35,687 bases of DNA from the IMG/VR virus record IMGVR_UViG_2690315992_000010; one strand, written 5' to 3'. The notes under the pieces are model-generated. The model saw only the letters and a list, made by a program, of their open reading frames with translations, ran no database searches and had not been told where the DNA came from. Of the stretch, positions 1,447-35,687 are shown piece by piece. Each line of letters opens with the position of its first letter. The stretch's first letter is position 1. This stretch comes from a virus (taxonomy: Duplodnaviria; Heunggongvirae; Uroviricota; Caudoviricetes). A program made the translations under genes and the position numbers.

Positions 1447-1486
1447 GCCCCTATCGTTATAATACGCGGTAGGGGCGTTTTTGTTT
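1447..1486 (+). terminator. hairpin with T-tract between secreted-protein gene and recombinase gene
   Basis: GCCCCTA...TAGGGGC stem around a TTATAATA centre, followed by GTTTTTGTTT. Could be a terminator/attenuator or a recombinase-associated palindrome. Confidence 0.4.
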
Positions 1487-1495
1487 GGAAATGGT

Positions 1496-3175
1496 ATGAA
1501 AACTAAACTGTATTCGTATATTCGTTTCTCGTCTATGCGTCAGAATGATGGTTCGAGTTATGAACGACAAATCAGGATGGCTAGAGAGATTGCGGTAAAG
1601 TATGACCTTGAACTGGTAAATGATTATCAGGATCTGGGTGTATCTGCGTTTAAGGGTGCTAACTCCAAAACAGGGGCGCTATCTCGTTTCCTTGATGCAA
1701 TAGGTAGATCCGTTCCTGTTGGTAGCTGGCTATTCATCGAAAACTTGGACCGTTTATCCCGTGCCGATATTGTCAGTGCGCAGGAGTTATTCCTTTCAAT
1801 CATCCGTAGGGGGATAACCATTGTTACTGGCATGGATAACAAGATCTACTCGCTGGATACTGTTACCGCTAACCCGATGGACCTGATGTTCTCCATCCTT
1901 TTATTCATCCGTGGTAATGAGGAAAGCCAGACTAAGCGCAATCGTACTAACTCAAGCGCACTGATTAAGATTAAAGCTCATCAAGAAAATCCACAAAATC
2001 CGGCTGTTGCAATCGAGGAAATTGGAAAGAATATGTGGTGGACTGATACCACATCTGGTTATGTGCTTCCTCATCCGGTCTTCTTCCCTATTGTTCAGGA
2101 AGTTGTGGAATTACGCAGGAATGGACGGTCAACCGCCGAGATACTGGATCACCTTAACGCGACATACACACCACCACCAGCCGCAAGTCACAAGAGGCAT
2201 TCAAACTGGTCACGGGCAATGATTGAAAGGTTGTTCCATACCCGCGCTTTGATTGGTATCAAGGAAATCTCTGTAGATGGCGTTAAGTATGAGTTAAAGG
2301 ATTATTATCCTCGTGTGCTAGATGACGCTGAGTTTTATCACCTTAAGAAAAGCATTGGTGTTAGAGCATGTAACTTTGGAGACAAAGAAGAAGTTAAACC
2401 TATTCCCTTGCTTAGTGGTGTTGGTCTATTGAAATGTGAACATTGCGGTTCCGCTATGGTTAAGGTGAAAGGAACAAACAGACGGCCTAACCAATATCGT
2501 TATTCATGCGATGCAATGCGCTCTAGTCGTATTGAATGTGTGCATACAAACTGGAGTTTTCGCGGCGACCAATTAGAGAAAGCTGTATTGCAATTGCTGG
2601 CTGATAAAATCTGGATTGCTGAAGATAAGGCTAATCCGGTTCCGGCTTTGAAAGTACAGATTGATGAAATATCACGCAAGATTGATAACCTGATTACCCT
2701 TTCTGCTATGACAGGAGCAACGAAGGAGCTAGCCGATCAGATTACTACCCTCAATAGCGAGCGTGAAACACTCTACAATCAAATTAAGATGGCAGAAGAG
2801 GAAATGTATTCTGTTGACTCTCAAGGCTGGGAGAAGCTCGCAGAATTTGATTTAGAAGATGTTTACAACGAGGATCGCATTAAGGTCCGGTTTAAGATTA
2901 AGCAAGCTCTAAAACGGATCGGGTGTAGCAGGATTGACAAGTACAAAAACTTGTTTGTACTGGAATACATCGATGGCAAGACCCAGAGAGTTGTAATAGA
3001 AAATTCAAGAGGACCGAGGAAAGGCCGGATCTTCGTTGATTTGAAGACTATCAATGATAGGCAGATTCTGGAGAGTAACGGGCTTGTTCTGCATCCATGT
3101 TTAGACATGCTGACAGATAAGAACTGGAAACCAGAAGAAGAAATACCAGGTCCATTACAGGAATTTGGAATTTAA
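1496..3175 (+). CDS. large serine recombinase (putative serine integrase)
   Basis: N-terminal resolvase-type catalytic domain (YIRFSSMRQ...SYERQ, GVSAFKG, ENLDRLSRA), then recombinase domain, Cys-rich zinc-ribbon (CEHCGS...YRYSCD...CVH) and coiled-coil; 559 aa from ATG 1496. Track start 1481 is TTG; ATG 1496 is in frame. Confidence 0.8.
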   Translation: MKTKLYSYIRFSSMRQNDGSSYERQIRMAREIAVKYDLELVNDYQDLGVSAFKGANSKTGALSRFLDAIGRSVPVGSWLFIENLDRLSRADIVSAQELFLSIIRRGITIVTGMDNKIYSLDTVTANPMDLMFSILLFIRGNEESQTKRNRTNSSALIKIKAHQENPQNPAVAIEEIGKNMWWTDTTSGYVLPHPVFFPIVQEVVELRRNGRSTAEILDHLNATYTPPPAASHKRHSNWSRAMIERLFHTRALIGIKEISVDGVKYELKDYYPRVLDDAEFYHLKKSIGVRACNFGDKEEVKPIPLLSGVGLLKCEHCGSAMVKVKGTNRRPNQYRYSCDAMRSSRIECVHTNWSFRGDQLEKAVLQLLADKIWIAEDKANPVPALKVQIDEISRKIDNLITLSAMTGATKELADQITTLNSERETLYNQIKMAEEEMYSVDSQGWEKLAEFDLEDVYNEDRIKVRFKIKQALKRIGCSRIDKYKNLFVLEYIDGKTQRVVIENSRGPRKGRIFVDLKTINDRQILESNGLVLHPCLDMLTDKNWKPEEEIPGPLQEFGI

Positions 3176-4072: not shown

Positions 4073-4420
4073 TTAGATCATTTCGAAGATATAACCAATA
4101 AAGCGCATACCCTTGATATAATAAGGAGCAGTGCCTACACACACCGCGCGTGCATCGCCCAGACAATTAAAGCTATAAGGATTAACTACATCGACTTCTT
4201 GCCCGACACGAAAACGATACTTAGGACGTTTAGCCAATGTAGCGACACAAAACACGGTCCCTTTTTCATGATCGCGGATACATTCTTTATATTGTTTATG
4301 TTTAACTCTCTTCGCCTCAAAATCATAGGTCATTGATTCTGGGCTAATGCCATTAATAAAAATACCGGAAAGCTGATCGACCGGATAAGTAGGAAATTCA
4401 GTGAAAATATTTTTAGCCAT
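4073..4420 (-). CDS. hypothetical protein
   Basis: 115-aa ORF, no TM segment or motif recognised. Confidence 0.45.
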   Translation of the reverse strand: MAKNIFTEFPTYPVDQLSGIFINGISPESMTYDFEAKRVKHKQYKECIRDHEKGTVFCVATLAKRPKYRFRVGQEVDVVNPYSFNCLGDARAVCVGTAPYYIKGMRFIGYIFEMI

Positions 4421-4458
4421 GTTATACCCCCATAAGATTCTATGAGGGTATTTATGGA

Positions 4459-5142
4459 TTAAACATATCTCATGCGCGATTTAATGTGCTTATTAATGTT
4501 CTTAAGCATCATTTCCTCGTTGCTTTCCCACGATCCTAGCGTCGAATAACGAGTAGAAATTTTATCCGACTTAACGGCAACAATTCGCTTACTCTGTTTC
4601 TGGATGCGTTTCTCTAAGCGACGTTTTGCCACCGCCGATCCATTCCTAGCGCGTTTGGTTCGGGATTTCTTAGGCTTGTACTTCTTCATGATAAAAGTCC
4701 CTTCCTTGTTCTCTACCTTGATGAAGTTGCCGTTTTCGAGGTTACGCATCATCCTCCCGCCTTTGATGGCCTTAATGTTCCCGTGGGCGTCTAAGACCTT
4801 ACCGTTGGCAATTGGCACTAGCTTATTGATTTTGCCACCATCGAAATAGTGTTTCAGATAGTCGTCCTGACTGCCGATCTTCTTGTCCTTATCCCTTGCG
4901 CCCTTAATGAAGATTTGGTGTCTCGTCCCTGATCGGTTCTTGTAGTTGGTATTACCTACAGCTTGCTGAGTCCAGCGAGTAGGTCTATCAACATTCTTGT
5001 TAATCTTCTTCTGGAGTGCTCTGGAAGCAAAGATCGCCCCTTCCCCTATCGCCCTTTCGAATGTATCAGTTGCCTTTTCAGACCATTGCCGCAACGCTTT
5101 CTTAGTCCTTAGAGCGTTTCGTTTATTGGTACTGATTGCCAT
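4459..5142 (-). CDS. hypothetical highly basic protein
   Basis: 227-aa ORF rich in Lys/Arg (KKYKPKKSRTKRARNG..KRRLEKRIQKQSKR); function unknown. Confidence 0.45.
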   Translation of the reverse strand: MAISTNKRNALRTKKALRQWSEKATDTFERAIGEGAIFASRALQKKINKNVDRPTRWTQQAVGNTNYKNRSGTRHQIFIKGARDKDKKIGSQDDYLKHYFDGGKINKLVPIANGKVLDAHGNIKAIKGGRMMRNLENGNFIKVENKEGTFIMKKYKPKKSRTKRARNGSAVAKRRLEKRIQKQSKRIVAVKSDKISTRYSTLGSWESNEEMMLKNINKHIKSRMRYV

Positions 5143-5143
5143 G

Positions 5144-5314
5144 TTAGCCCCCTAATAACGAAAAGACCCCCGCCAGTGTCCTTAGCAATTGTTCATCCAC
5201 GGTCATAGCCGGGAGTTCAAGCCCAAAGGACGTTAGCAGAGGTCTAATAGCTACGTTATAAGTGAGGGCGACAATCAAGAGATAACCAAAATATTTCTTA
5301 AGTTTATTCTTCAT
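5144..5314 (-). CDS. small membrane protein, 56 aa (one predicted TM helix)
   Basis: Internal ATG at 5314 preceded by GGGGTGA RBS; hydrophobic stretch YFGYLLIVALTYNVAI. Track ORF 5144-5386 starts further upstream and overlaps the preceding gene. Confidence 0.35.
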   Translation of the reverse strand: MKNKLKKYFGYLLIVALTYNVAIRPLLTSFGLELPAMTVDEQLLRTLAGVFSLLGG

Positions 5315-5333
5315 ATATTCACCCCTTTTATTA

Positions 5334-5612
5334 TTATTTTTGTCTGAGTAAATCGATAACTTGGTCAAATTTAGCGTCCATCGCAACCACTTTCTTCTCT
5401 ATACCGTGTAGTGTTTGTTCCATTTGGTAAACACGTTCAGCAATCTGAGTATGGTTATTCTGCATCGTCTCAAACTTCTGGTTTAACAATGCGTCGCTGG
5501 ATTCCAATTTAGATAACCTATTTTCTGTTGCTAATTGATTTCGGTGGAGTCTCCAAAGCCCACCGCAAATTAAGGCGATAACACCGATACCGCCATATAT
5601 AATTTCAGTCAT
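5334..5612 (-). CDS. membrane-anchored coiled-coil protein (N-terminal TM, spanin-like topology)
   Basis: N-terminal hydrophobic IIYGGIGVIALICGGLW followed by heptad-like helical region; sits immediately downstream of J-like gene. Confidence 0.45.
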   Translation of the reverse strand: MTEIIYGGIGVIALICGGLWRLHRNQLATENRLSKLESSDALLNQKFETMQNNHTQIAERVYQMEQTLHGIEKKVVAMDAKFDQVIDLLRQK

Positions 5613-5717
5613 TACGCCCCCGATATTTTTATATAGTTTAATGGCAAAATTATTTAGATAAAAATAATCCCGCCTAACTCAAAAGAATTAAGCGGGATTA
5701 ATTATTAGAATTAAATT

Positions 5718-8700
5718 TTAAGAAACAGAAATACCAGTAGCGGCTTTCTTAGTTACCATTACCGTTAGATCGCTGATATATGCACTTGGGGTATAGTTGT
5801 TAACGCCCTTACAGTAAACTTCAAAAGTCATTGTTACTGCCCCGTGTCCGGCTGGCATGTCAATAACTCCACTGTACATACAGCCAGAAGTTGCAGTGCG
5901 ATCATATAGAACACCACCATTTTTCTTAACGATTAGTCGGCAAGTATCCCAATGATCGCTACTTTCGCCACGACGAACAGACCCGTTATGATGAATCGCT
6001 GGAATCACTATTTGGCGATCGAATGGATGATCATCTTCGACCCTTACAGTGATTGCACCATCAGGCCAGTTTGGTTGGCGATGCGGGAAACTCCTACCAA
6101 CCACTTTCACGAAGTCACCACGCACCTGATTAGCATCAAGCATACCCAAAATGCGGCAACTTGAATTAATCGTTACGTTGTTCATTTCGCCGGAATCAGC
6201 CACCAAATGACCACGAATATTAGCGTATCTAAAATGGCAAGTGCCATCTTTGCCAATATACCATCCATCGTTACCATTCCAGTTATAAGACTGGATATAG
6301 TTACCAATTTTAGCATTATCGATAGAGCCATCAATAATATGACCTGTTCCGATCTGTGCGTGCTGGATGTGAGCACCGTTAATCTGGGCTGTGCCGATCT
6401 TAGCCGTAGTGATACTAGCATCACTAATCTGGGCGGTTCCGATCGCTGCATTACGAATCATTGCATTATCGAGATAAACCTTGTTATCTTCGATACCAAA
6501 CGGACAAACTTCTGATCCGTCTTGTGGAGCTACCGCGATTTTATCAGCCGTAAAGATGATTCTCGTCGGTTGTGCTGGATCGTTGGTTGCGCTCATATGA
6601 ATACCAGCCACGCGACCATCTGCATTAACTGCCAGATTATATTTGCTGTTAATGGTTCCCTTCAAAGCATCGATTTTTACATCTGCTTCCTGATTCACAC
6701 CAGCAATCTTACCATCCATTTCTACCCGAACTTGATCAATCTTGCTTGCGCTTGCTGCCTCACTGGTAGCAATTGCTTGTTTCAGGGTAGTAGCGGATGC
6801 GCTAACTTCTTTGGTGATATCGCCTTTCAGTTCAGCTTTAACCTGATCAATCTTAGTTGCGCTGGCTTGCTCACTGGTAGCAATCAGACTCTTGAGAGTA
6901 TCGGCTGAGGCTTGGACCGTCTGCCCTGTCTCGGTAGTAATCTGTTTATGCATTGCATCAATCTTAGCATCGGCATTAGCGCCAGCTTGAGCAATAGCAT
7001 CCGCGATGGTTTCATCTAAGCGATCTTGTAAACCGATCAGGTCTTCCAGTGCTTCTTTGTCCTGATCGTCCCAACTAATGGTAGATTTCATTTGCATGAA
7101 ATACGGTTCGGACCAAACAGCATCATCCATACCGAAAATATCGTAGTGAGCACCACGGATATAATAATCACCGTCAGCAATATCAAAGGAAGTATGGCTA
7201 ACACTATTCGTGCTTACTGCCCTTGCATCTGAGAAAGTGTTATCGGTTGCATACTGGATGATTGACCCTGCATAGTCATGTTCTACGTCATCCGCCCAGC
7301 TAACAAACGCAGTATTAAAGCCACCACGCGCACTAAAACCTTTCATTGGCTTATGCTGTGGGTTAATAGCCACTAAACGCGCTGGGGCGCTTACAGAGTT
7401 GTTATAACCCTTAGCGGATACTTCTACCGTCAATTCACGGGAAAGGCCGTTAAACTGGTTCATATCGAGCGTATAGGTCCATGATTCAGGATCGCGGGTA
7501 CGGTACTGAATAGACTTACCAGCCTTGTTAGTTACCTTGATAATGTAGGCTTCAAACAGGTCACTAAACTTGTTAGTTTCACCGTTGATAACCACATCTA
7601 AGGCTTGCTGATTGTCCCATTCAATAATCAGATCGTTGCCTTCGAAAGTACCAGGTGAACTACCCTGATTTTTGATGCGGATCGCTGGCGTAGGCAGTTC
7701 ATAGGTAACTTCTGGATTCTGGTTAACCAATTCCACCCATTCGGAACGAGCAATAATACCGAAAGCACAAACGCGGTAATCGTAGGAACGATCTTTAGCC
7801 AGTGCATTGATATTGAAAATTTGCTGTGAAGTCTGTCCCAGCTTAATCCAGTTAGGTGATCCACTCACTTTGTAATCAATCTGGAAACCGTAGCGGTTGA
7901 AATCTTCCGGTGCATCCCATGTCAAAGTTACGTTTTTACCGTGGATTGTCTCACCAGTTGCCTTAATTCTGAAATTAGTCGGTTTCTGTACTGTCATTGA
8001 ATCCGGTAAACCAGTAGGTCTATTGTCTGGATTCGCCGCATAGTTCAGGTCAGTATAAACCTGAGAATTATATTCTGTGGCGGTGATAGTCATCATCCCA
8101 GCAATACCAGAATCAATAGAGCGATCAATTGCAGTAATACGCCAAAGTGAATTATTCAGTTTTAATTCATCATAGGTTACGCTAATAACATCCCAAACTT
8201 CGGCAGTGAATGCGTCAGTAGTCATAAAGCTGATAACCTGAGTGATACGAGATTTATTTCGTTCTACACTCGCGAGTTTATCAATCTGGGCTTTAGACTT
8301 AACAAAACGATATTCAATATCTTTAGCGATAATTCGACCATCTTGACGAATAGTAGCATCGTTTTCAGCATCAGCCGGATAACGTAGCATTTGCTCGGAA
8401 TAGTCGATTGATGGTTCTTGATACATCGCGTTAATGGTATTGAAATAACCGTTAGTGCCACCTGTTTTCAGTGATACCTTACCCATCATGATATTGTCTT
8501 CATTGAAGGTATGCTTAACAATATCAGGAGCATCCAGTTTCAGGGTAATTCTTCCGAAGGATTCGAACATCACCCCGCCGAAAGTCTGCATGAGATTAGT
8601 TAAGTTCTCTTTAAAGCTGGCGTTCGGATCACATGCACCGTTTGAATGCAAATCCATCTGGCGTACTTGTTTACGTACTTTCAGGAATGAATCAACGTTG

Positions 8701-25181: not shown

Positions 25182-27086
25182 TTAGAACGATGTTACCCAG
25201 CTACGGCCTCTATTTGGGCGTCTGGCGATGTTTTTACGTTGTGGTCGTGTGATTGGCTTATTTTCTTCGATTTGCTCGTCAGATTGCGATTTAGGAGCTT
25301 CTACGGATTCTTCTGGTTCACGGTTCAAACTATCTTTGATGGCTTCGAGTTTTTCCCATGACATTTTATTGAGTACATGGCGATAACTAGCCACCGCATA
25401 GGTTAGGCAGTCCAAGCCCTCGTTGCGTTGCTGACCAACTTTTACCCAACGTGTGGTATTACCCTGCCGTTTCAACTGTTCAGATAGCAATTGCTCGCAG
25501 TAGTCATCAGGAACGTCACCAATCTGGAAGACCGTATGAGGATCGCTGTCTCTCAAGTTCCGGTTAATCATTTCACGGATCATCGTCTTAAGGTTGTTTA
25601 CGCCCAGAATTTTAAGGGTAAAACCGCCCGTTCTTGTGTCTTTTACCGGAAGGATTGGAGCATCAACATTACTTGCGCCCTTAATGGCGCATAGATTTTG
25701 CCACCTAGTGCAAAAGCGGTAGATCACTTGCGTAGCTCGTCCGTTTGATGAGTCCACGAAAGCGGATAGCATCGGGATTCGTTGACCGGATCGGGTATAG
25801 AATTTTGCTTTCAGGAAGTTGTAAAGCTGGTCATATGCTGGTGATTCGTGGCGTTCGCAGTTCACATCATAGAATGATCGGTGATCAACTACGCATATCC
25901 CTTTACGAGAGATACCCAGCAAGGTAGATTCCAGACGGTCTTTTTGCTGGTCAACTCCACCTACCAGAGCCAAAACATCATCAGGAATATTATCTAAGCT
26001 AATGTCAGTTTTCAGCGTTTCCAGTTCGTCGGCTGTGCGGTCTTCGTTAAGATCATCGAAGGTTTCACCGAGCACCACATTATAGAACGTTGCCAGCGAC
26101 ATATTCGCGTAGCTATCAGCAAAGTCCACCACACACGCACGGATAGAACTAAACGGAGACATAAGGCGGTTAGCATGAAAACCGATTACTTCCGCATTTG
26201 GTTCGGTGGCGACCCATTCTCCCTGAGCAACAGCACGGAGGCGATCTGGTTCTGACCAATCAGTTTCACATGACGGGCAACGGTAAACGGCTGTGTCTGG
26301 ATTCGGCAGTGATTTACCATTGATTACATGCCAATCAAAGAATACTCTACTCCATTCCATTACGTGTTTGTGTCCGCAATGCTGGCAAACGACGTGGTAT
26401 TTTCTTTTATCCGAGAGTTCCCATTGTTGGTTTATCGCCCCATCCCGCGAAGTTGGAGTAGAAGCAATTACGATCCTTGCATCATCACCGAAAGTGGTTG
26501 CGCGTTGTTCCGCTAGCTGGATCGGGTTCCCTTCGTCTGACTCATCAGCCGCATCAACTTCATCAAGAATAATCAAAGGTAGTGTTTTACCGCGAAGATG
26601 TGATGGACTATTCAACGACATGAAATACATGAATGATCCGTTACGAAGCTGAATAATCGATGAGTTGTTAACGGCATTGCGATCTGACTTGTCGGTGATC
26701 ATCGCCTTTAATTCTGGGGTTGCCTCTAATACTGGCTTCACCTTACCCGCGATCCAGCTATTCAACTCGCGGACGTTTGCTTGCAAAACACCTATATTAG
26801 TGGGGTTGCTGGCGATCCTATGAAAGATAATACCGTTTAGCACAAGAGTTTTACCCAACTGCGCCGAGCACTTTAGCACAATTTTTCGCCTATCTTCGGT
26901 GATCGCGTCCATCATCCCACGTTGGAAAGGATGCAATTTAATTAGCGATCCGGCTTTAACACCATCGGTTGCAACTACATTAGCCTCTACCCATTCGCTA
27001 GGTTTCATGGCTTTAGGTGGGCGAATTGCAGCAGAGATATTTCTGAGAATCTTTTTTAATTTTGCCTTATTAGAAATCAGTTTCAT
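25182..27086 (-). CDS. terminase large subunit (GpA family)
   Basis: 634 aa; Walker A-like KCSAQLGKT, IASTPT motif, Cys-rich zinc-finger-like segment (CQHCGH...CPSC), size similar to lambda gpA; GAGGGTAA RBS before ATG 27086. Confidence 0.8.
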   Translation of the reverse strand: MKLISNKAKLKKILRNISAAIRPPKAMKPSEWVEANVVATDGVKAGSLIKLHPFQRGMMDAITEDRRKIVLKCSAQLGKTLVLNGIIFHRIASNPTNIGVLQANVRELNSWIAGKVKPVLEATPELKAMITDKSDRNAVNNSSIIQLRNGSFMYFMSLNSPSHLRGKTLPLIILDEVDAADESDEGNPIQLAEQRATTFGDDARIVIASTPTSRDGAINQQWELSDKRKYHVVCQHCGHKHVMEWSRVFFDWHVINGKSLPNPDTAVYRCPSCETDWSEPDRLRAVAQGEWVATEPNAEVIGFHANRLMSPFSSIRACVVDFADSYANMSLATFYNVVLGETFDDLNEDRTADELETLKTDISLDNIPDDVLALVGGVDQQKDRLESTLLGISRKGICVVDHRSFYDVNCERHESPAYDQLYNFLKAKFYTRSGQRIPMLSAFVDSSNGRATQVIYRFCTRWQNLCAIKGASNVDAPILPVKDTRTGGFTLKILGVNNLKTMIREMINRNLRDSDPHTVFQIGDVPDDYCEQLLSEQLKRQGNTTRWVKVGQQRNEGLDCLTYAVASYRHVLNKMSWEKLEAIKDSLNREPEESVEAPKSQSDEQIEENKPITRPQRKNIARRPNRGRSWVTSF

Positions 27087-27174: not shown

Positions 27175-27780
27175 ATGCTAATTAATCAGCAACAAAGAGA
27201 TGCATTAGAATTAGCCTTTTCTTGTTGTACCGATCATGAATATCGTTTGCCAGTTAAGCACCATCACAAGAAGACTGATTACACAACATCTGGCTTTAGT
27301 CGTGAGGAAGCTAAACAGATTTTAATCGAGTTGTATCGCGATCATGGGTATACCGATATTCATAACTTCTTTAAGAAGCATCGTACATCACAGACAGAGT
27401 TTAATAGAGTTCGTGAATGGTTTGATTTTGACATTAAGCGATTCTATCGAGTAGATGACGGTCCTATCTATCGGTTGCAGTGGACACCGATTAGGGAAGT
27501 GCTTAAACAGAAGAGATTGAATCATGCCATTACACGCTATCGTAATGTGGCTTTTAAGAAAGGCTATGGTGATTCAAGGGAATTGTTTGTAGAACTCGCT
27601 AACGTGCGATATAGCCACTATTACAGGAATCCTAAAGAGTTCTTCGAAGTGCTGCGCAAGGTTGATATTAGTCGGGGTACATATTATTCACGGTTGAAGA
27701 AGTACGGGATTAAGGCAGAGTTCTTTATGTCGGTTGACGATGGAGAACTTTTTCCGATAAAATGTAAGTCCTCTAAATAA
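27175..27780 (+). CDS. helix-turn-helix protein of unknown function (paralogue family member 1)
   Basis: 201 aa; contains FSREEAKQILIELYRD and C-terminal ISRGTYYSRLKKYGI segments that recur in the two small proteins at 27810 and 31471. Confidence 0.5.
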   Translation: MLINQQQRDALELAFSCCTDHEYRLPVKHHHKKTDYTTSGFSREEAKQILIELYRDHGYTDIHNFFKKHRTSQTEFNRVREWFDFDIKRFYRVDDGPIYRLQWTPIREVLKQKRLNHAITRYRNVAFKKGYGDSRELFVELANVRYSHYYRNPKEFFEVLRKVDISRGTYYSRLKKYGIKAEFFMSVDDGELFPIKCKSSK

Positions 27781-30071: not shown

Positions 30072-30713
30072 AGTGGAAATCCTCTAAAAGAAAGTGAATC
30101 AAACAAATTACACTAGTATTTATAACGAGAATTTTTTATCTATTTGGAAGGGATTGGTATTCAGTCGGGCATAGCCCTCCTTCATAGATTTTGATTAAAT
30201 CATCATCAAAACGAAGAAGTATCTTTAGAATATAAGAATCTTTCTTTCGAAGAAAGAATAATCAGGAAGCAATTTCAGCAACCGCAGGTTGCGATCCCGA
30301 AGGGATAACCAATACCTTTCTAGAAAGTGATTGTTACTCACTTCGTTCGTTTACTAGAATCAGTTATCATCTAGTATTAAAATCCCTTTCTAAGAAAATC
30401 CTTTCAAAAGTGATTCTCGATGCCACGCAGTGGCGTCGCAGACGTTTGAGAGTGAGCGAAGCGAGCGAGCAAACTAGTTAATTCCTTCTAAGACCATCTA
30501 GTATCATCTAGTTTAAATTAGTTGTTACTAGAAGTAATTGGTTAGCGCTACGCGCAGTCGGGCAAAGCCCTCCTAATATCTTTTTGGTTATTTTTGGTTT
30601 TACACATGAGCGTAGCGAATGTGTTATATAATATCTATGCACGCCCGATTCCCCGTTTTTACCCCTCACTAAGTTAATGTTTTATAAAGAGTTTTTCTTA
30701 CCAATCCTTTTCG

Positions 30714-30906
30714 GGGGCAAATTTCAGGGGCAAAAATTAGATTTTAAGGGGCAATTATTGGCATTTCAGGGGCAAAAATGAGGGGCAAAATCACTGTTTC
30801 CCAGAATTTCAGGGGCAAAAATAGTGGGTTTCAGGGGCAAAAATGGGATAGTGGAATCTTGGGTATTTTGGTTCGGGGGCAAAATTCAGAATTTCAGGGG
30901 CAATTC
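30714..30906. repeat. array of ~9 direct GGGGCAA(A/T) iterons (5 copies of full TTTCAGGGGCAAAAAT)
   Basis: Core starts near 30715, 30727, 30749, 30770, 30782, 30811, 30832, 30876, 30897; spacings mostly 12 or 21 bp; non-coding. Confidence 0.6.
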
Positions 30907-30993
30907 CCATCAAATATTTTGATAGAAAATTCTTGTATATTATTTAATCAAAAAATCACCAAAAAGTGGCGTAAGTTAATGATTTAAAAAGAA

Positions 30994-31019
30994 TTGTCAA
31001 AAGGTCTCCGTGCTATAAT
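30994..31019 (+). promoter_or_regulatory. candidate extended -10 promoter (rightward)
   Basis: TTGTCAA at 30994-31000 and TGcTATAAT at 31011-31019. Confidence 0.35.
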
Positions 31020-31099
31020 AGGTTATAAAGGTTGATAATCCTGATCTACCATTTTCAAACAAAAATTTTGATAGTCATTTCTCGCTTAGGTCAAGTGTA

Positions 31100-31128
31100 T
31101 TGACAACTGTCAAGGATTATTTTATACT
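31100..31128 (+). promoter_or_regulatory. candidate strong sigma70 promoter (rightward) with palindromic -35 region
   Basis: TTGACA (31100-31105), 17-bp spacer, TATACT (31123-31128); -35 lies in palindrome TTGACAACTGTCAA. Confidence 0.5.
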
Positions 31129-31263
31129 TTTTCTCACTGGTGGGGGTTGAAATTTTCTAAACAGTCCCCATATAGATGATAAGCAAGAATTTCCACGTTA
31201 TAAATACATGTGTGAAATGATTGTTCACTTCTGAAAATCTCCTGATCCACTGCTAATTCATAC

Positions 31264-31291
31264 AGCACTGGTTAGATATACAGTGCTTTTT
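31264..31291 (+). terminator. intrinsic terminator-like hairpin (possible end of a ~160-nt small RNA)
   Basis: AGCACTG-gttagatata-CAGTGCT followed by TTTT. Confidence 0.4.
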
Positions 31292-31415
31292 CGGTTGAAT
31301 ATTGTACGAATTGATTAATAATTAATCTTCTCTTTAGCAATTCGTGCTCCCACTGATCGGATATACAGTGGTTTTACAGGGTTTTCTGAAAATCATTTTA
31401 TAAATACAAGTGTTC

Positions 31416-31436
31416 AGAGCGAAATGCTCTTTTTTA
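31416..31436 (+). terminator. attenuator hairpin immediately upstream of gene 31471
   Basis: AGAGC-gaaat-GCTCT followed by TTTTTT. Confidence 0.45.
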
Positions 31437-31470
31437 AGAAATTATTAATCCACATGTGAGGAATCGACTG

Positions 31471-31650
31471 ATGGCTAGACCTGTTAAGTTCACTCGTGAA
31501 ATGATTGTTGATATTGCTAAACGCTTTTACAGCGACACTGAGCGAGGCGGGGAAAACTTCTTTAAGAAGGAAGGAATTGATAGAAGCGGATTCTACAAGC
31601 TAATGAAGAAATACGAAATTCAGGTAAAGATTAACGTTCAAGTTTGTTAA
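31471..31650 (+). CDS. small helix-turn-helix DNA-binding protein (paralogue 3)
   Basis: 59 aa from ATG 31471 (GAGGA RBS); ARPVKFTREMIVDIAKRFY...IDRSGFYKLMKKYEI parallels the 27810 protein. Track start 31456 is GTG. Confidence 0.5.
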   Translation: MARPVKFTREMIVDIAKRFYSDTERGGENFFKKEGIDRSGFYKLMKKYEIQVKINVQVC

Positions 31651-31765: not shown

Positions 31766-32710
31766 ATGTTATTTTCCGCTAACTTTTTCACTAACGAAGT
31801 AACCAACGCTAAAGCAGTTATCAAATTTGGCACCGAAGCAAACAAGAAGATTCAGCCGAAAGTTGTTGTTCATGTTTCCTTTGCGCAGCAGAAATCCGCT
31901 TTCGCTGGCTTTAAAGCACATCGTGAAGCACTGATCGCGGCTGGCTTTGGTGTTGACGGTAAACTGCCTAACGGCATTCGTAAAGCAATCGACCGCGTTA
32001 AACCTGCTAAAGACGTTGCAGTAGACCACATCGTTACTTTCACCGTTAAGAACTCTTCTGAACTGTTCCACCTAGTGATTGCTGGTGATACTGCTATCGT
32101 TTCCGCTCCTAACATGGATTTTCAGGATACCGCTGATTGCAACATTACCTTTGGTCGTCGTAAAGAAGTTACCGGAAAAGCTAAACTGAACTTCACCAAA
32201 TCCGGCAATCCTTACTTTGCTGTATTCTTTAACAGCCACGCTACTGAGAAAGAAGTAGTAGAACTGGTTGCATATGAAGGTGAAGAAAAAGCACGTATTG
32301 AATCTTGCGACGCTTTCGTAGAACTGGAAGCACAGGTTAATGCTGTTTCTCCGGTTGCTGTTGAAGATCGTTTCTCTGCACTGGAAGCACAGATCGCAGA
32401 ACTGAAAGCTGCGCTGGAAGAAAAAGACCAGATCATCGAAGCACAGAAAGCTGAGATTGAAGAACTGAAAGCTAAAGAAGTTGCTCCGGTGGCAGTAGTT
32501 GAAAATGCGGCTGATGAGGCCGCAAATGATGAAGTAGAAGTGAAAATCGATGTGATGCGTGATCCGATGGCTGCACTGCAATTGCTTCGTTCTTTTAAGG
32601 GCAAATCTCATTTTTCTAGTGATGCGGTAGACGAGGAAGAAGAACAGAAACGCAATGTTGCAATGCTTCATGATGAAATGTACGGTACTAACTTTTCTTA
32701 CTGCCAATAA
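31766..32710 (+). CDS. hypothetical protein, apparently highly expressed (N-terminal globular part, C-terminal Ala/Glu-rich coiled-coil-like region)
   Basis: 314 aa; consensus AGGAG RBS 8 nt before ATG; codon usage strongly skewed to CTG/CGT/GGT/GAA/AAA/GCT; bracketed by terminators. No family recognised. Confidence 0.6.
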   Translation: MLFSANFFTNEVTNAKAVIKFGTEANKKIQPKVVVHVSFAQQKSAFAGFKAHREALIAAGFGVDGKLPNGIRKAIDRVKPAKDVAVDHIVTFTVKNSSELFHLVIAGDTAIVSAPNMDFQDTADCNITFGRRKEVTGKAKLNFTKSGNPYFAVFFNSHATEKEVVELVAYEGEEKARIESCDAFVELEAQVNAVSPVAVEDRFSALEAQIAELKAALEEKDQIIEAQKAEIEELKAKEVAPVAVVENAADEAANDEVEVKIDVMRDPMAALQLLRSFKGKSHFSSDAVDEEEEQKRNVAMLHDEMYGTNFSYCQ

Positions 32711-35336: not shown

Positions 35337-35687
35337 TTATTTTGGGTTGACTACATTCGGGTTGCCAATTCGCCAGGCTAACTCTTGCTGAGTGATTTCT
35401 GACTGTAAAAAAGCATTTAACAGCAATACTTTAGAGGCGACGCTCAAAGGTACTTCAATAAAGTGATCATGACTATTTAATGGCGAAGGTAACGGGATAA
35501 GCTCGTTATCTTCAAAATAAAAATCAAATGCGGTCAGTAAAGCATCTTTTGCCGCTTCCATCGCTTCAGCGACAGTTTCGCCCTGCGTCAACGCTTCAGG
35601 GATATCCACAAAAGAAACCATATAACCGCCTTCCGGCGCGGGTGTAAGAGTGACGGGATAACGCATAATTTCGACTGTCTCTCGCAT
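35337..35687 (-). CDS. hicB: HicB-family antitoxin, N-terminal domain only; C-terminal DNA-binding domain apparently truncated at junction with phage-like DNA
   Basis: MRYPVTLTPAPEGGYMVSFVDIPEALTQGETVAEAMEAAKDALLTAF... recognised as HicB N-terminal domain (recalled as near-identical to E. coli HicB; not verified). ORF ends ...ITQQELAWRIGNPNVVNPK* inside what should be the first helix of the HTH. Base composition and codon usage look more host-like here. Confidence 0.55.
   Translation of the reverse strand: MRETVEIMRYPVTLTPAPEGGYMVSFVDIPEALTQGETVAEAMEAAKDALLTAFDFYFEDNELIPLPSPLNSHDHFIEVPLSVASKVLLLNAFLQSEITQQELAWRIGNPNVVNPK

What the first reader, a model, noticed from the sequence alone, without database searches (positions are those of the whole stretch)
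30161..30574. Pair of 19-bp direct repeats with embedded hairpin, ~394 bp apart
CAGTCGGGCATAGCCCTCC (30161-30180) and CAGTCGGGCAAAGCCCTCC (30555-30574) are near-identical and each contains a GGGC-N3-GCCC stem. Direct repeats bracketing a ~400-bp segment could be recombination sites, a duplicated regulatory element or ends of a small inserted module.
Basis: seen in the sequence. Interest (0 to 1): 0.4.

Follow-up and report, generated by a model that had tools for sequence, protein, structure and literature searches.

The report
Conserved hairpin shared by phage and transposons
The two repeats are real, conserved copies of a small DNA hairpin whose sequence also forms the tip of a hairpin near one end of many bacterial insertion sequences; they are not insertion scars, and their function is unknown.

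Summary
The repeat is real: CAGTCGGGCATAGCCCTCC (30162-30180) and CAGTCGGGCAAAGCCCTCC (30555-30573), with none expected by chance. The window is an uncharacterised E. coli/Shigella prophage, present in 58 of 5426 complete E. coli genomes. The repeats lie in a 1.4-kb non-coding gap. That gap also holds about nine GC-rich mini-hairpins and an iteron array whose type covaries with the neighbouring 314-aa gene, so it is probably a replication origin.

No relative lacks the roughly 390 bp between the copies, so they are not ends of an insert. Copy 1 is kept in nearly all relatives, with compensatory stem changes. Copy 2 belongs to one swappable iteron module.

Unexpectedly, the motif TTCAGTC-GGGC-NNN-GCCC-TCCTTC is also the tip of a longer, strongly covarying hairpin. 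That hairpin sits near one terminus of IS21-family (for example ISRm9) and ISNCY-family insertion sequences in many phyla. It matches no Rfam family, and I found no description in the searchable literature.

The phage copies keep only this tip. Both copies point the same way relative to the iterons. I favour a strand-specific, single-stranded-DNA signal used when the region is unwound for replication. This mechanism is inferred, not shown.

The parts
30160..30184 (.). Copy 1: hairpin tip TTCAGTC-GGGC-ATA-GCCC-TCCTTCA. The purine-rich ('GA') version lies on the minus strand.
   Evidence: It is the best hit in the window to covariance model R1 (16.4 bits, E=0.03, model positions 18-42). It is conserved in nearly all relatives, with loop variants ATA, AAA, TAAA and TA, and stem variants TGGC/GCCA and GGC/GCC.
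30555..30577 (.). Copy 2: CAGTC-GGGC-AAA-GCCC-TCCT, a trimmed tip in the same orientation as copy 1.
   Evidence: R1 gives 8.5 bits, E=3.8. It is present only in relatives with the GGGGCAA-iteron module, with loop AAA or TAC. In the GTGTAGG-iteron module it is replaced by ACGGC-TAC-GCCGT.
30146..30197 (.). Extended duplication unit 1 (GGAAGGGATTGGTA + copy 1 + TCATAGATTTTGATTA).
   Evidence: Comparison of the flanks of both copies.
30530..30590 (.). Extended duplication unit 2 (AGAAGTAATTGGTTA + GCGC-TAC-GCGC hairpin + copy 2 + AATATCTTTTTGGTTA).
30181..30209 (-). Predicted leftward sigma-70-like promoter: -35 TTGATG at 30209-30204, 17-nt spacer, -10 TATGAA at 30186-30181. The -10 abuts copy 1, so the start site would fall at about 30174, inside the hairpin.
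   Evidence: Read from the sequence. It aligns with TTGGTT-17-TATATT upstream of ORF130w in phage RB49. It was not listed by the consensus scan, and spacer length varies from 15 to 17 among relatives. It is a prediction only.
30278..30306 (+). Two adjacent mini-hairpins: GCAACC-GCA-GGTTGC and ATCCC-GAA-GGGAT.
   Evidence: L015 and L017 carry different hairpins at the same place.
30418..30464 (+). Hairpin CGATGCCAC-GCA-GTGGCGTCG (a T.G pair forms only on the + strand), followed by the mini-hairpin GA-GC-GAA-GC-GA.
   Evidence: The type-B module has ACGCC-GTA-GGCGT at the same position.
30545..30555 (.). GCGC-TAC-GCGC hairpin immediately before copy 2.
   Evidence: It is conserved as GCGC-TWC-GCGC in modules A and B.
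30574..30601 (.). AT-rich stretch (TAATATCTTTTTGGTTATTTTTGGTTTT) between copy 2 (GA strand = minus) and the next hairpin (GA strand = plus). It is a candidate unwinding element.
   Evidence: Inference from the arrangement only.
30602..30624 (+). Hairpin ACACAT-GA-GC-GTA-GC-GA-ATGTGT. The tandem G.A pairs form only on the + strand. A relaxed DnaA-box match, TTTTACACA, lies at 30598-30606.
   Evidence: The type-B module has TTTCT-TGA-AC-GTA-GT-GAG-AGAAA at the same place, with a different stem and the same design.
30709..30908 (+). Iteron array: at least 9 copies of TTCAGGGGCAAAAAT-like units, spaced at 21-22 bp or multiples of that.
31766..32710 (+). 314-aa protein of unknown family. Its N-terminal part covaries with the iteron type, so it is inferred to be the iteron-binding protein and a candidate replication initiator.
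   Evidence: No Pfam or PHROG family matched. All homologues are labelled 'hypothetical protein' in E. coli or Shigella.

Best explanation
The two repeats are duplicated copies of a conserved cis-acting hairpin module with consensus TTCAGTC-[4-bp stem]-NNN-[stem]-TCCTTYC. Elsewhere this module forms the tip of a 55-60-nt hairpin that lies 45-120 nt inside one terminus of IS21-family and ISNCY-family insertion sequences in many phyla. In this E. coli prophage only the tip is retained. It occurs twice in direct orientation, inside a 1.4-kb non-coding control region. That region combines a predicted leftward promoter, a cluster of GC-clamped triloop mini-hairpins, and an iteron array that covaries with the adjacent 314-aa gene, so it is a presumptive replication origin. 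These points are shown: the repeat, its conservation with compensatory changes, the absence of empty sites, the family relationship, and the iteron/protein covariation. The mechanism is inferred. The module would act as folded single-stranded DNA on the purine-rich strand (minus strand here: 5'-GAAGGA-GGGC-TAT-GCCC-GACTGAA). On that strand the 'internal loop' can close through G.A pairs and two Watson-Crick pairs. In both settings the purine-rich strand is the lagging-strand template for a fork coming from the TCCT side. In the phage that fork would leave the iterons leftwards. In the insertion sequences it would enter from the nearest terminus during copy-out replication. I therefore propose a strand-specific replication signal, for example a priming or helicase-entry signal, or one that stabilises the unwound state.
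For: Repeat and chance. Conservation: copy 1 is present in nearly all relatives, with invariant flanks, variable loops, and paired stem changes (TGGC/GCCA in L032, GGC/GCC in L023 and L035). Family: a genome scan with a 19-specified-base pattern gave 34 loci against about 4 expected, 27 of them structured. A metagenome scan gave 88 loci. On 62 sequences, 91.5% of cells pair versus 56.6% in shuffles, 17 of 18 pairs change on both sides, and the covariation score is 0.80 versus 0.16 (slid controls 0.11-0.20). The apical stem swaps among GGGC/GCCC, GCCC/GGGC, AGCC/GGCT and GTTC/GAAC while its flanks stay fixed, which argues for a folded single strand rather than a duplex binding site. IS context: NCBIfam identifies IS21 IstA, IstB and an ISNCY transposase. 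There is one hairpin per element. A named example is ISRm9, whose variant shows an A-T to G-C compensatory change inside the 'internal loop'. DNA rather than RNA: wobble pairs are equally rare on both strands, 26 versus 31 of 1296 cells. Membership of the phage copies: R1 hits at copy 1 (E=0.03) and copy 2. Origin context: iterons, perfect covariation of iteron type with the 313-341-aa gene, and 8 of the window's 25 GC-rich triloop hairpins within 30140-30660. That region folds better than shuffles on both strands, z -4.15 and -3.74. Hairpin positions are kept with different sequences in modules A, B, C and D.
Against: There is no functional evidence for replication. No known replication protein was recognised in the window. 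The structure prediction for the 314-aa protein failed, with pLDDT 38. The phage copies lack the 8-14-bp basal stem and fold weakly (-3.4 kcal/mol), so they may work by sequence rather than by structure. Loops AAA and ATA are not GNA on either strand. In the type-B module copy 2 is replaced by an unrelated hairpin, so copy 2 is dispensable for the phage family. L027 lacks copy 1. In the high-GC phage contig L008 the same motif flanks late structural genes in mRNA sense, which fits an expression signal better than an origin. The orientation argument rests on only a few independent IS lineages.
Confidence: 0.4

Rival explanations
1. RNA-level expression signal. The module would work in transcripts as an insulator or terminator, an mRNA end-stabiliser, or a translation-control hairpin. 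One strand carries an anti-Shine-Dalgarno-like CCUCCUUUC and the other carries AAGGAGG.
For: In L008 the motif lies about 45 nt upstream of the starts of the major-head and sheath genes, and just after stop codons, in mRNA sense. In Ca. Scalindua (L062) the hairpin follows hflX and is followed by a U8 run on that strand. In ISNCY elements and many IS21 elements the transposase or IstB stop codon lies in or beside the 5' arm. Copy 1 lies 91 nt upstream of the 152-aa ORF, similar to the 85-117 nt upstream of istA in IS21 elements.
Against: G.U pairs are no more frequent than A.C pairs on either strand, which is unlike known structured RNAs. The sense strand differs between contexts: motif strand after ISNCY and istB genes, GA strand before istA. 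There is no T-run after either phage copy, and the terminator scan calls neither. No Rfam family matches. The predicted leftward promoter would start transcription inside copy 1.
Confidence: 0.22
2. Operator-like protein-binding sites. A phage-encoded or host protein would bind the 19-20-bp sequence in duplex DNA. Copy 1 overlaps the start region of the leftward (Rha/anti-repressor) operon promoter, and copy 2 would be a second site for looping or origin control.
For: The flanks CAGTC and TCCT are invariant in both copies and across relatives. Copy 1 abuts the predicted -10. The phage copies fold weakly, so sequence recognition is plausible.
Against: Loop length varies (2, 3 or 4 nt), and the stem sequence changes in a compensatory way. 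A duplex-binding protein would not tolerate either. The motif is absent from the rest of E. coli genomes, and no candidate binding protein covaries with it. The wider family clearly selects for pairing.
Confidence: 0.15
3. Relic of an insertion-sequence end. An IS21- or ISNCY-like element once inserted here and decayed, leaving only hairpin tips with little or no present function.
For: The motif is otherwise typical of IS ends. The phage copies are truncated, with no basal stem. Copy 2 is followed by two short direct repeats and CACA, loosely like an IS end.
Against: Copy 1 is conserved across relatives that differ by 10-40% in the neighbouring gene, and pairing is maintained by compensatory change. 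There are no transposase remnants or terminal repeats. There are two copies in direct orientation, whereas IS elements carry one. No such IS was found in E. coli genomes.
Confidence: 0.12
4. One reading: the repeats are recombination sites or target-site duplications bracketing a roughly 390-bp mobile insert.
For: The repeats are direct and bracket a hairpin-rich non-coding segment.
Against: No relative has an empty or recombined site. The segment to the right of copy 1 is conserved in relatives that lack copy 2. Module-swap and deletion end points do not coincide with the repeats.
Confidence: 0.03

Closest known systems
Subterminal hairpin of IS21-family (for example ISRm9 of Sinorhizobium meliloti) and ISNCY-family insertion sequences. 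I found no published description.
   Same: The tip is nearly identical: TTCAGTC-GGGC-(TAC)-GCCC-TCCTTC. The TAC-loop form occurs in copy 2 of several phage relatives. The apical stem is kept by covariation. Copy 1 sits about 90 nt upstream of the first gene of an operon, in the same relative orientation as the hairpin upstream of istA.
   Different: The phage copies lack the 8-14-bp basal stem. They are not next to a transposase or to terminal repeats. There are two per genome in direct orientation, rather than one per element.
PeSL cassettes (promoter-early stem-loop) of RB49/phi1-type T4-like coliphages (PMC2839356, PMC4122927).
   Same: Both pair a GC stem-loop with an AT-rich promoter-like segment in a mosaic, exchange-prone phage region. 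Window 30184-30265 is about 77% identical to an intergenic spot upstream of ORF130w in RB49-like phages.
   Different: PeSLs carry consensus sigma-70 promoters and GGGG/CCCC terminators, occur in dozens of copies, and flank small orphan genes (ORFans) that they shuffle. Here there are two copies, no ORF lies between them, no terminator is called, and module exchange does not occur at the repeats. The RB49 locus itself lacks the 19-mer.
Iteron-type origins with nearby single-strand initiation signals (lambda ori, plasmid R1 oriR with its G-site, phage G4 complementary-strand origin). From my own knowledge.
   Same: There are direct-repeat iterons with a covarying binding protein, an AT-rich stretch and stable hairpins nearby. 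On the minus strand the hairpin is followed by GA-CTG, and CTG is the E. coli primase start trinucleotide.
   Different: No initiator, helicase-loader or primase homology was detected. No functional data exist. There is no sequence similarity to G4 or R1 signals that I could test.
d(GCGAAGC)-type extraordinarily stable DNA mini-hairpins (Hirao and colleagues; from my own knowledge).
   Same: The region contains GAGCGAAGCGA and GAGCGTAGCGA, plus several C-GNA-G triloops. The IS hairpin has a GTA triloop on the purine-rich strand, flanked by tandem G.A.
   Different: The two 19-mers in this window have AAA and ATA loops, which are not GNA on either strand.
IS200/IS605 end hairpins and their miniature derivatives, REP elements, and integron attC sites.
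   Same: These are also folded single-strand DNA signals carried by mobile elements. IS200/IS605 ends are direct repeats of a hairpin.
   Different: Those are recognised by HUH/Y1 transposases or integron integrases, none of which is encoded here. The IS elements carrying the present motif encode DDE (rve) transposases. There is no sequence similarity.

Membership tests
IS21/ISNCY subterminal hairpin (model R1) | Tip sequence TTCAGTC / TCCTTYC on either side of a 4-bp stem with a 3-nt loop | tested here: met
   Copy 1 matches all 21 constrained tip positions (7 + 4 + 4 + 6) and is the best R1 hit in the window (16.4 bits, E=0.03). Copy 2 keeps CAGTC..TCCT (8.5 bits, E=3.8).
IS21/ISNCY subterminal hairpin (model R1) | Apical stem maintained by compensatory change | tested here: met
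   Phage relatives show TGGC/GCCA (L032) and GGC/GCC (L023, L035). The family shows GGGC/GCCC, GCCC/GGGC, AGCC/GGCT and GTTC/GAAC.
IS21/ISNCY subterminal hairpin (model R1) | Basal stem of 8-14 bp closing with AAC/GTT | tested here: not met
   The R1 hits are local, covering model positions 18-42 only. Only about three A.T pairs flank copy 1 and none flank copy 2.
IS21/ISNCY subterminal hairpin (model R1) | Located 45-120 nt inside an IS terminus, next to istA/istB or an ISNCY transposase, one per element | tested here: not met
   No transposase was detected near the repeats or among the ORFs scanned. The window has two copies, whereas IS loci have one.
PeSL cassette (T4-like phages) | Consensus sigma-70 early promoter adjacent to the stem-loop | tested here: inconclusive
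   TTGATG-17-TATGAA on the minus strand aligns with the RB49 promoter-like site. It was not listed by the scan, and the spacer varies from 15 to 17 nt.
PeSL cassette (T4-like phages) | Stable GC-rich stem-loop acting as a terminator; many copies flanking ORFans | tested here: not met
   The stem is 4 bp at -3.4 kcal/mol and no terminator is called. There are only two copies, and no credible ORF lies between them.
Insertion with target-site duplication / MITE / miniature IS200-IS605 derivative | Relatives with an empty site; terminal inverted repeats or end hairpins with a matching transposase | tested here: not met
   No empty site was found in about 30 loci, and all matches in complete E. coli genomes lie in this prophage family. 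The repeats are direct, and no transposase is present.
Intrinsic (Rho-independent) terminator | GC-rich stem of at least 5 bp followed directly by a T-run | tested here: not met
   The scan calls three sites in the gap but neither copy. The T-runs start 9-10 nt after the 4-bp stems.
P4 CI / P1 C4-type antisense-RNA immunity (direct-repeat targets flanking the RNA gene) | An internal sequence complementary to the two direct repeats; a C4-like RNA | tested here: not met
   No inverted copy of the 19-mer is present. No C4 or related Rfam hit appears even at E up to 10.
G4-type primase-dependent single-strand initiation signal | Stable hairpin(s) with 5'-CTG-3' just 3' of the hairpin on the template strand; primase priming on SSB-coated single-stranded DNA | not testable with these tools
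   The sequence feature is present on the minus strand (GCCC-GA-CTG) in both copies and in all relatives. Function requires an in vitro priming assay.
Iteron-type replication origin | Array of direct repeats at helical spacing with a cognate, covarying binding protein | tested here: met
   There are at least 9 repeats spaced at 21-22 bp. Four iteron types (A-D) occur. Types A and B, which have several members each, always pair with their own allele of the 313-341-aa gene. The 185-aa and other neighbouring genes do not covary.
Iteron-type replication origin | Supports autonomous replication; initiator homologous to known Rep/O proteins | not testable with these tools
   No Pfam or PHROG family matched. 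The structure model is unusable, pLDDT 38.

The most novel reading that the evidence does not exclude
The hairpin is a portable, strand-specific single-stranded-DNA signal that mobile elements of very different kinds use to engage the host replication machinery. It would act in copy-out/paste-in insertion sequences (IS21, ISNCY) at the end where replication enters, and in a temperate phage next to its iteron origin. This would be a previously unrecognised, phylum-spanning cis-element for priming or helicase entry.
Probability: 0.2. Interest if true: 0.8.

Novelty: new variant of a known kind. Interest (0 to 1): 0.55.

Why it matters
The pair of repeats would be an ordinary feature of a phage control region if considered alone. 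Its sequence, however, links an uncharacterised E. coli prophage family to a strongly covarying hairpin carried near one end of IS21- and ISNCY-family insertion sequences. These elements occur in Alpha- and Gammaproteobacteria, Bacillota, Bacteroidota, Ignavibacteria and other phyla. The hairpin matches no Rfam family, and I found no description of it.

A roughly 25-nt core kept almost unchanged across such distant hosts and unrelated mobile elements implies a shared partner or mechanism. If that mechanism is replication, it bears on an open step in copy-out/paste-in transposition: how a replication fork is established at the IS end. It would also give a defined, mutable element for testing that step. 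In addition, it would mark the probable origin and initiator of a prophage family present in about 1% of complete E. coli genomes.

Tried and rejected
- **tRNA/tmRNA scan:** no genes found.
- **Rfam:** no hit at gathering threshold on the window or on 15 IS loci. At E up to 10 there were only sub-threshold chance hits, the best being JA04 at 31 bits against a threshold of 81.
- **Megablast of the region against phages:** no match.
- **blastn of the gap against plasmids:** no match.
- **tblastn of the 314-aa protein against phages:** no match.
- **Protein homology search for the 314-aa protein:** it returned only near-identical 'hypothetical' E. coli and Shigella proteins, so no deep alignment could be built. 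The AlphaFold model was unusable (pLDDT 38), so no fold search was run.
- **Genome scan with the 152-aa ORF:** no relatives found.
- **The 17-mer AGTCGGGCRAAGCCCTC in IMG/VR:** the four extra contigs were single hits in high-GC DNA that look like chance or coding matches.
- **Looser patterns in IMG/VR:** they gave only chance hits that look like SD+ATG sequences. No IS-type hairpin was found in viral contigs.
- **Literature search for the sequence:** it hit only an unrelated microsatellite primer tag. Searches on G4-type signals and on IS21 hairpins were uninformative.
- **Conserved mini-ORF after the SD-like GGAGG (MPD*):** rejected, because frame and start codon are not conserved among the loop variants.
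- **XerCD dif, IHF site, hammerhead or twister cores, RfaH ops, Neisseria DUS:** each was considered from memory and rejected for lack of a convincing match.
- **Comparison of RB49 ORF130w with the 152-aa ORF:** no similarity.
Full report
**1. Observation**

The window carries CAGTCGGGCATAGCCCTCC at 30162-30180 and CAGTCGGGCAAAGCCCTCC at 30555-30573 on the + strand. These are the only matches with up to 3 mismatches on either strand. None occurred in 100 dinucleotide-preserving shuffles.

The similarity is longer than 19 bp. Two units, 30146-30197 and 30530-30590, share this layout:
- GAAG-NN-ATTGGT upstream;
- the CAGTC-hairpin-TCCT core;
- TTTTGRTTA downstream.

Copy 2 has an extra GCGC-TAC-GCGC hairpin inserted before CAGTC.

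**2. Context**

The window is a temperate phage of about 35 kb. It encodes:
- a lambda-gpA-type large terminase (25182-27086, minus strand);
- a large serine integrase (1481-3175);
- an endolysin;
- a Rha-family regulator.

The host is E. coli or Shigella. An identical copy of the 314-aa gene lies on a contig that also carries hicAB, yncJ, ydcP and ydcN. The region is found in 58 of 5426 complete E. coli genomes, always on the chromosome. NCBI's PGAP annotation marks nothing in the gap. No isolated phage is close: the best terminase match is 43% identical.

The repeats lie in a 1.4-kb non-coding gap (30072-31455). It separates a leftward operon (152-aa ORF, 110-aa ORF, Rha) from rightward genes (64-aa and 314-aa ORFs).

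**3. What else is in the gap**

(a) An iteron array. There are at least nine TTCAGGGGCAAAAAT-like units at 30709-30908, spaced at 21-22 bp or multiples.

(b) A cluster of small GC-clamped hairpins. Eight of the window's 25 GC-rich triloop hairpins fall in 30140-30660, which is 1.5% of the window. The region folds better than shuffles on both strands, z -4.15 and -3.74.

(c) Several hairpins that are better on the + strand. One has a T.G pair at 30418-30438. Two are tandem G.A-flanked mini-hairpins, GA-GC-GAA-GC-GA and ACACAT-GA-GC-GTA-GC-GA-ATGTGT.

**4. Relatives**

Eleven IMG/VR contigs carry the 19-mer, and 22 carry the 152-aa ORF. Alignments show the following.

- Copy 1 is present in nearly all relatives, and the flanks ATTCAGTC and TCCTTCAT are almost invariant.
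  - Loops vary: ATA, AAA, TAAA, TA.
  - Two stem variants keep pairing: TGGC-TAAA-GCCA in L032, and GGC-TTC-GCC in L023 and L035.
- To the right of about 30413 the family carries at least four alternative modules with different iterons: A GGGGCAA, B GTGTAGG, C GGGGA/ACGGGG, D TGTACATCCT.
  - Copy 2 occurs only in module A, with loop AAA or TAC.
  - Module B has ACGGC-TAC-GCCGT at that position.
- Other hairpin positions are kept between modules with different sequences.
- Iteron type covaries with the downstream gene.
  - Every type-A locus has a 313-319-aa protein at least 90% identical to the window's.
  - Every type-B locus has a 328-341-aa protein with no N-terminal similarity and only weak C-terminal similarity.
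  - Neighbouring genes, including the 185-aa terminase-small-like ORF, do not covary.

This follows the logic of lambda O and its iterons. I therefore infer, without showing it, that the 314-aa protein binds the iterons and that the gap contains the origin.

**5. The insertion reading fails**

No locus lacks the interval between the copies. No locus has a single hybrid copy. The module swap ends at about 30413 and 30908. The one natural deletion (L027, about 30140-30323) joins GATTG microhomologies. In complete E. coli genomes the motif is found only in genomes carrying this prophage. It occurs at 1-4 places per genome, never on plasmids, and never annotated.

**6. The unexpected link to insertion sequences**

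*Genome scan.* I scanned one genome per species with TTCAGTCGGGCNNNGCCCTCCT. This pattern has 19 specified bases, so about 4 chance hits are expected. It returned 34 loci. In 27 of them the 22-mer is the tip of a longer hairpin whose stem differs between lineages. Examples are cttcaacgtAAC[..]GTTacgttgaag and ggtcagaAAC[..]GTTtctgacc. The hits come from Ignavibacteria, Bacteroidota, Alphaproteobacteria, Chromatiaceae, Bacillota, Thermodesulfobacteriota and Ca. Scalindua. Seven contigs of one metagenome-assembled genome carry it, mostly at or near contig ends.

*Metagenome scan.* I then left the apical hairpin free (AACTTCAGTC-N11-12-TCCTTYCGTT). This gave 88 loci. The apical stems found were GGGC/GCCC (36), GCCC/GGGC (14), AGCC/GGCT, GTTC/GAAC, GCAC/GTGC and others. 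The loop is TAC in about 90%.

*Covariation.* On 62 distinct sequences:
- 91.5% of cells pair, versus 56.6% in shuffles;
- 17 of 18 pairs change on both sides;
- the covariation score is 0.80, versus 0.16 in shuffles and 0.11-0.20 in the slid controls.

The internal-loop sequences were fixed by my search patterns, so their invariance in this sample is partly by construction. ISRm9 shows a natural variant, TCCGGTC..TCCCTCC. It changes the central A-T pair of the 'loop' to G-C. This indicates two Watson-Crick pairs inside the loop.

*Where it sits.* NCBIfam identifies the neighbouring genes as IS21 IstA and IstB, or as an ISNCY-family transposase. Three arrangements occur:
- directly after the ISNCY transposase gene (21 loci);
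- after istB (15 loci);
- in inverted orientation 85-117 nt upstream of istA (9 loci).

Copies within one genome stay identical through the hairpin and two terminal direct repeats, and then diverge right after ..CACA. The hairpin is therefore inside the element. Each element has one hairpin. Read from the nearest terminus inward, the orientation is always the same, with the TCCT side facing the terminus.

In plasmids the motif occurs at 282 places in 133 rhizobial replicons, for example upstream of istA of ISRm9. It matches no Rfam family, and I found no paper mentioning it.

**7. How the phage copies relate to the family**

A covariance model of the IS hairpin (R1) finds copy 1 as the best hit in the window: 30160-30184, 16.4 bits, E=0.03. 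Copy 2 is a weak hit at 8.5 bits. Both matches are local to the tip, model positions 18-42. The basal stem is absent, and the phage copies fold weakly.

The phage therefore carries the family's tip but does not meet two defining features: the basal stem and the IS context. I call this a relationship of sequence, and probably of function, rather than membership.

**8. DNA or RNA, and which strand**

- In the IS family, wobble pairs are equally rare on both strands: 26 versus 31 of 1296 cells. That pattern is expected for a DNA palindrome and is unlike structured RNAs.
- The apical stem can be swapped while its flanks stay fixed. This argues for a folded single strand rather than a duplex binding site.
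- All non-paired positions are pyrimidines on one strand and purines on the other.
- On the purine-rich strand (5'-GRAAGGA-stem-GTA-stem-GACTGAA) they can form G.A pairs around two Watson-Crick pairs, capped by a GNA triloop. It folds slightly better than the other strand, -18.1 versus -16.5 kcal/mol.
- That design is known to be very stable in DNA (d(GCGAAGC)-type hairpins; my own knowledge).

I therefore favour the purine-rich strand as single-stranded DNA. In the phage this is the minus strand for both copies. The + strand carries similarly designed hairpins at 30454-30464 and 30602-30624. Copy 2 and the 30602-30624 hairpin flank a 28-nt AT-rich stretch.

**9. Proposed mechanism (inferred)**

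A fork leaving the iteron side leftwards would have the minus strand as its lagging-strand template. A fork entering an IS from its terminus would likewise have the purine-rich strand as its lagging-strand template. IS21 elements are reported to transpose through replicated tandem or circular intermediates (my own knowledge), and the ISNCY elements here carry related rve-type transposases. On the minus strand the hairpin is followed by GA-CTG, and CTG is the E. coli primase start site.

I propose a strand-specific replication signal. My probability for this is about 0.4. Rivals are:
- an RNA-level expression signal (0.22);
- a duplex operator overlapping the predicted leftward promoter (0.15);
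- a decayed IS end (0.12);

The strongest evidence for the RNA rival comes from L008. This is a high-GC Mu-like contig in which the motif flanks the major-head and sheath genes in mRNA sense.

**10. Link to RB49**

Window 30184-30265, just right of copy 1, is about 77% identical to an intergenic spot in RB49-like T4-type coliphages. In both phages it lies upstream of a small leftward ORF. It aligns a promoter-like TTGGTT-17-TATATT in RB49 with TTGATG-17-TATGAA in the window. RB49-type phages are known for promoter/stem-loop cassettes (PeSLs, PMC2839356). The resemblance is one of layout only, and the defining features of a PeSL are not met.

**11. Verdict**

The 'inserted module' and 'recombination site' readings are rejected. 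'Duplicated cis-element' is supported. The pair would be unremarkable alone, but it exposes a widespread hairpin motif, apparently undescribed, shared by insertion sequences and this phage. Its function remains to be tested.

Noticed in passing
window 30709-30908 and 31766-32710; loci L014-L035: The prophage family carries at least four interchangeable iteron modules: GGGGCAA, GTGTAGG, GGGGA/ACGGGG and TGTACATCCT. Iteron type covaries perfectly with the N-terminal part of the 313-341-aa protein encoded about 860 bp away. The DNA between them is conserved in all types.
   Followed up: partly
window 30184-30265; L012 (RB49 62809-62889), L013: An 82-nt non-coding stretch is about 77% identical to 1-4 intergenic places in RB49-like (Krischvirus) T4-type coliphages. 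There it lies upstream of ORF130w and next to two triloop hairpins, GTGCC-TAC-GGCAC and GTCGC-AAA-GCGAC.
   Followed up: partly
window 31266-31285 and 31351-31370: Two 20-bp palindromes, CACTGGTTAGATATACAGTG and CACTGATCGGATATACAGTG, have CTG-N10-CAG spacing like LexA boxes. They lie in the leader between the strong rightward promoter (TTGACA-17-TATACT, 31100-31128) and the 64-aa ORF. They may be operators or SOS boxes.
   Followed up: no
L008 (IMGVR_UViG_3300028327_000058), reverse strand 4089-10615: A high-GC (64%) Mu-like phage contig carries six copies of YRGTCGGGCRAAGCCCTYC within 60-86-nt GC-rich intergenic repeats. One type follows gene ends and the other precedes gene starts (protease, major head, sheath, head closure).
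   Followed up: partly
window 30454-30464 and 30608-30618; type-B loci such as L016: The 11-nt motif GA-RC-GNA-GY-GA (GAGCGAAGCGA, GAGCGTAGCGA) occurs twice per module in both module types A and B. It contains the classic d(GCGAAGC) mini-hairpin.
   Followed up: no
window 30322-30333 and 30409-30417; L015, L017, L025, L029, L035: A 9-mer, AAAGTGATY, often followed by AGAATCA, recurs 2-5 times between copy 1 and the iteron module, and its copy number varies among relatives. It looks like a binding-site array for another protein. One copy marks the left boundary of the module swap.
   Followed up: no
L027 versus window about 30140-30323: One relative has lost about 180 bp, including copy 1, the predicted leftward promoter and two hairpins. 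The loss occurred through GATTG microhomology.
   Followed up: partly
window 31456-31650 and 27175-27780: The 64-aa ORF is about 35% identical to the C-terminal part of the 201-aa ORF in relatives. It exists in two alleles (94% versus 48-55% identity) that do not track iteron type. The large terminase also has two alleles within the family (97% versus about 58%).
   Followed up: no
window 35337-35687; L036; L037: The right end of the window is host DNA (hicB). In strain GN4741 the same prophage interrupts ycdX instead, so the serine integrase uses different sites in different strains.
   Followed up: no
L062 (Ca. Scalindua rubra) 553-611: A complete IS-type hairpin stands alone just downstream of hflX, with an A8/U8 run beside it and no transposase nearby. 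It may be a domesticated terminator or a solo remnant.
   Followed up: no
window 30598-30606: TTTTACACA matches the relaxed DnaA-box consensus TTWTNCACA and overlaps the left arm of the 30602-30624 hairpin. It is present only in the type-A module.
   Followed up: no
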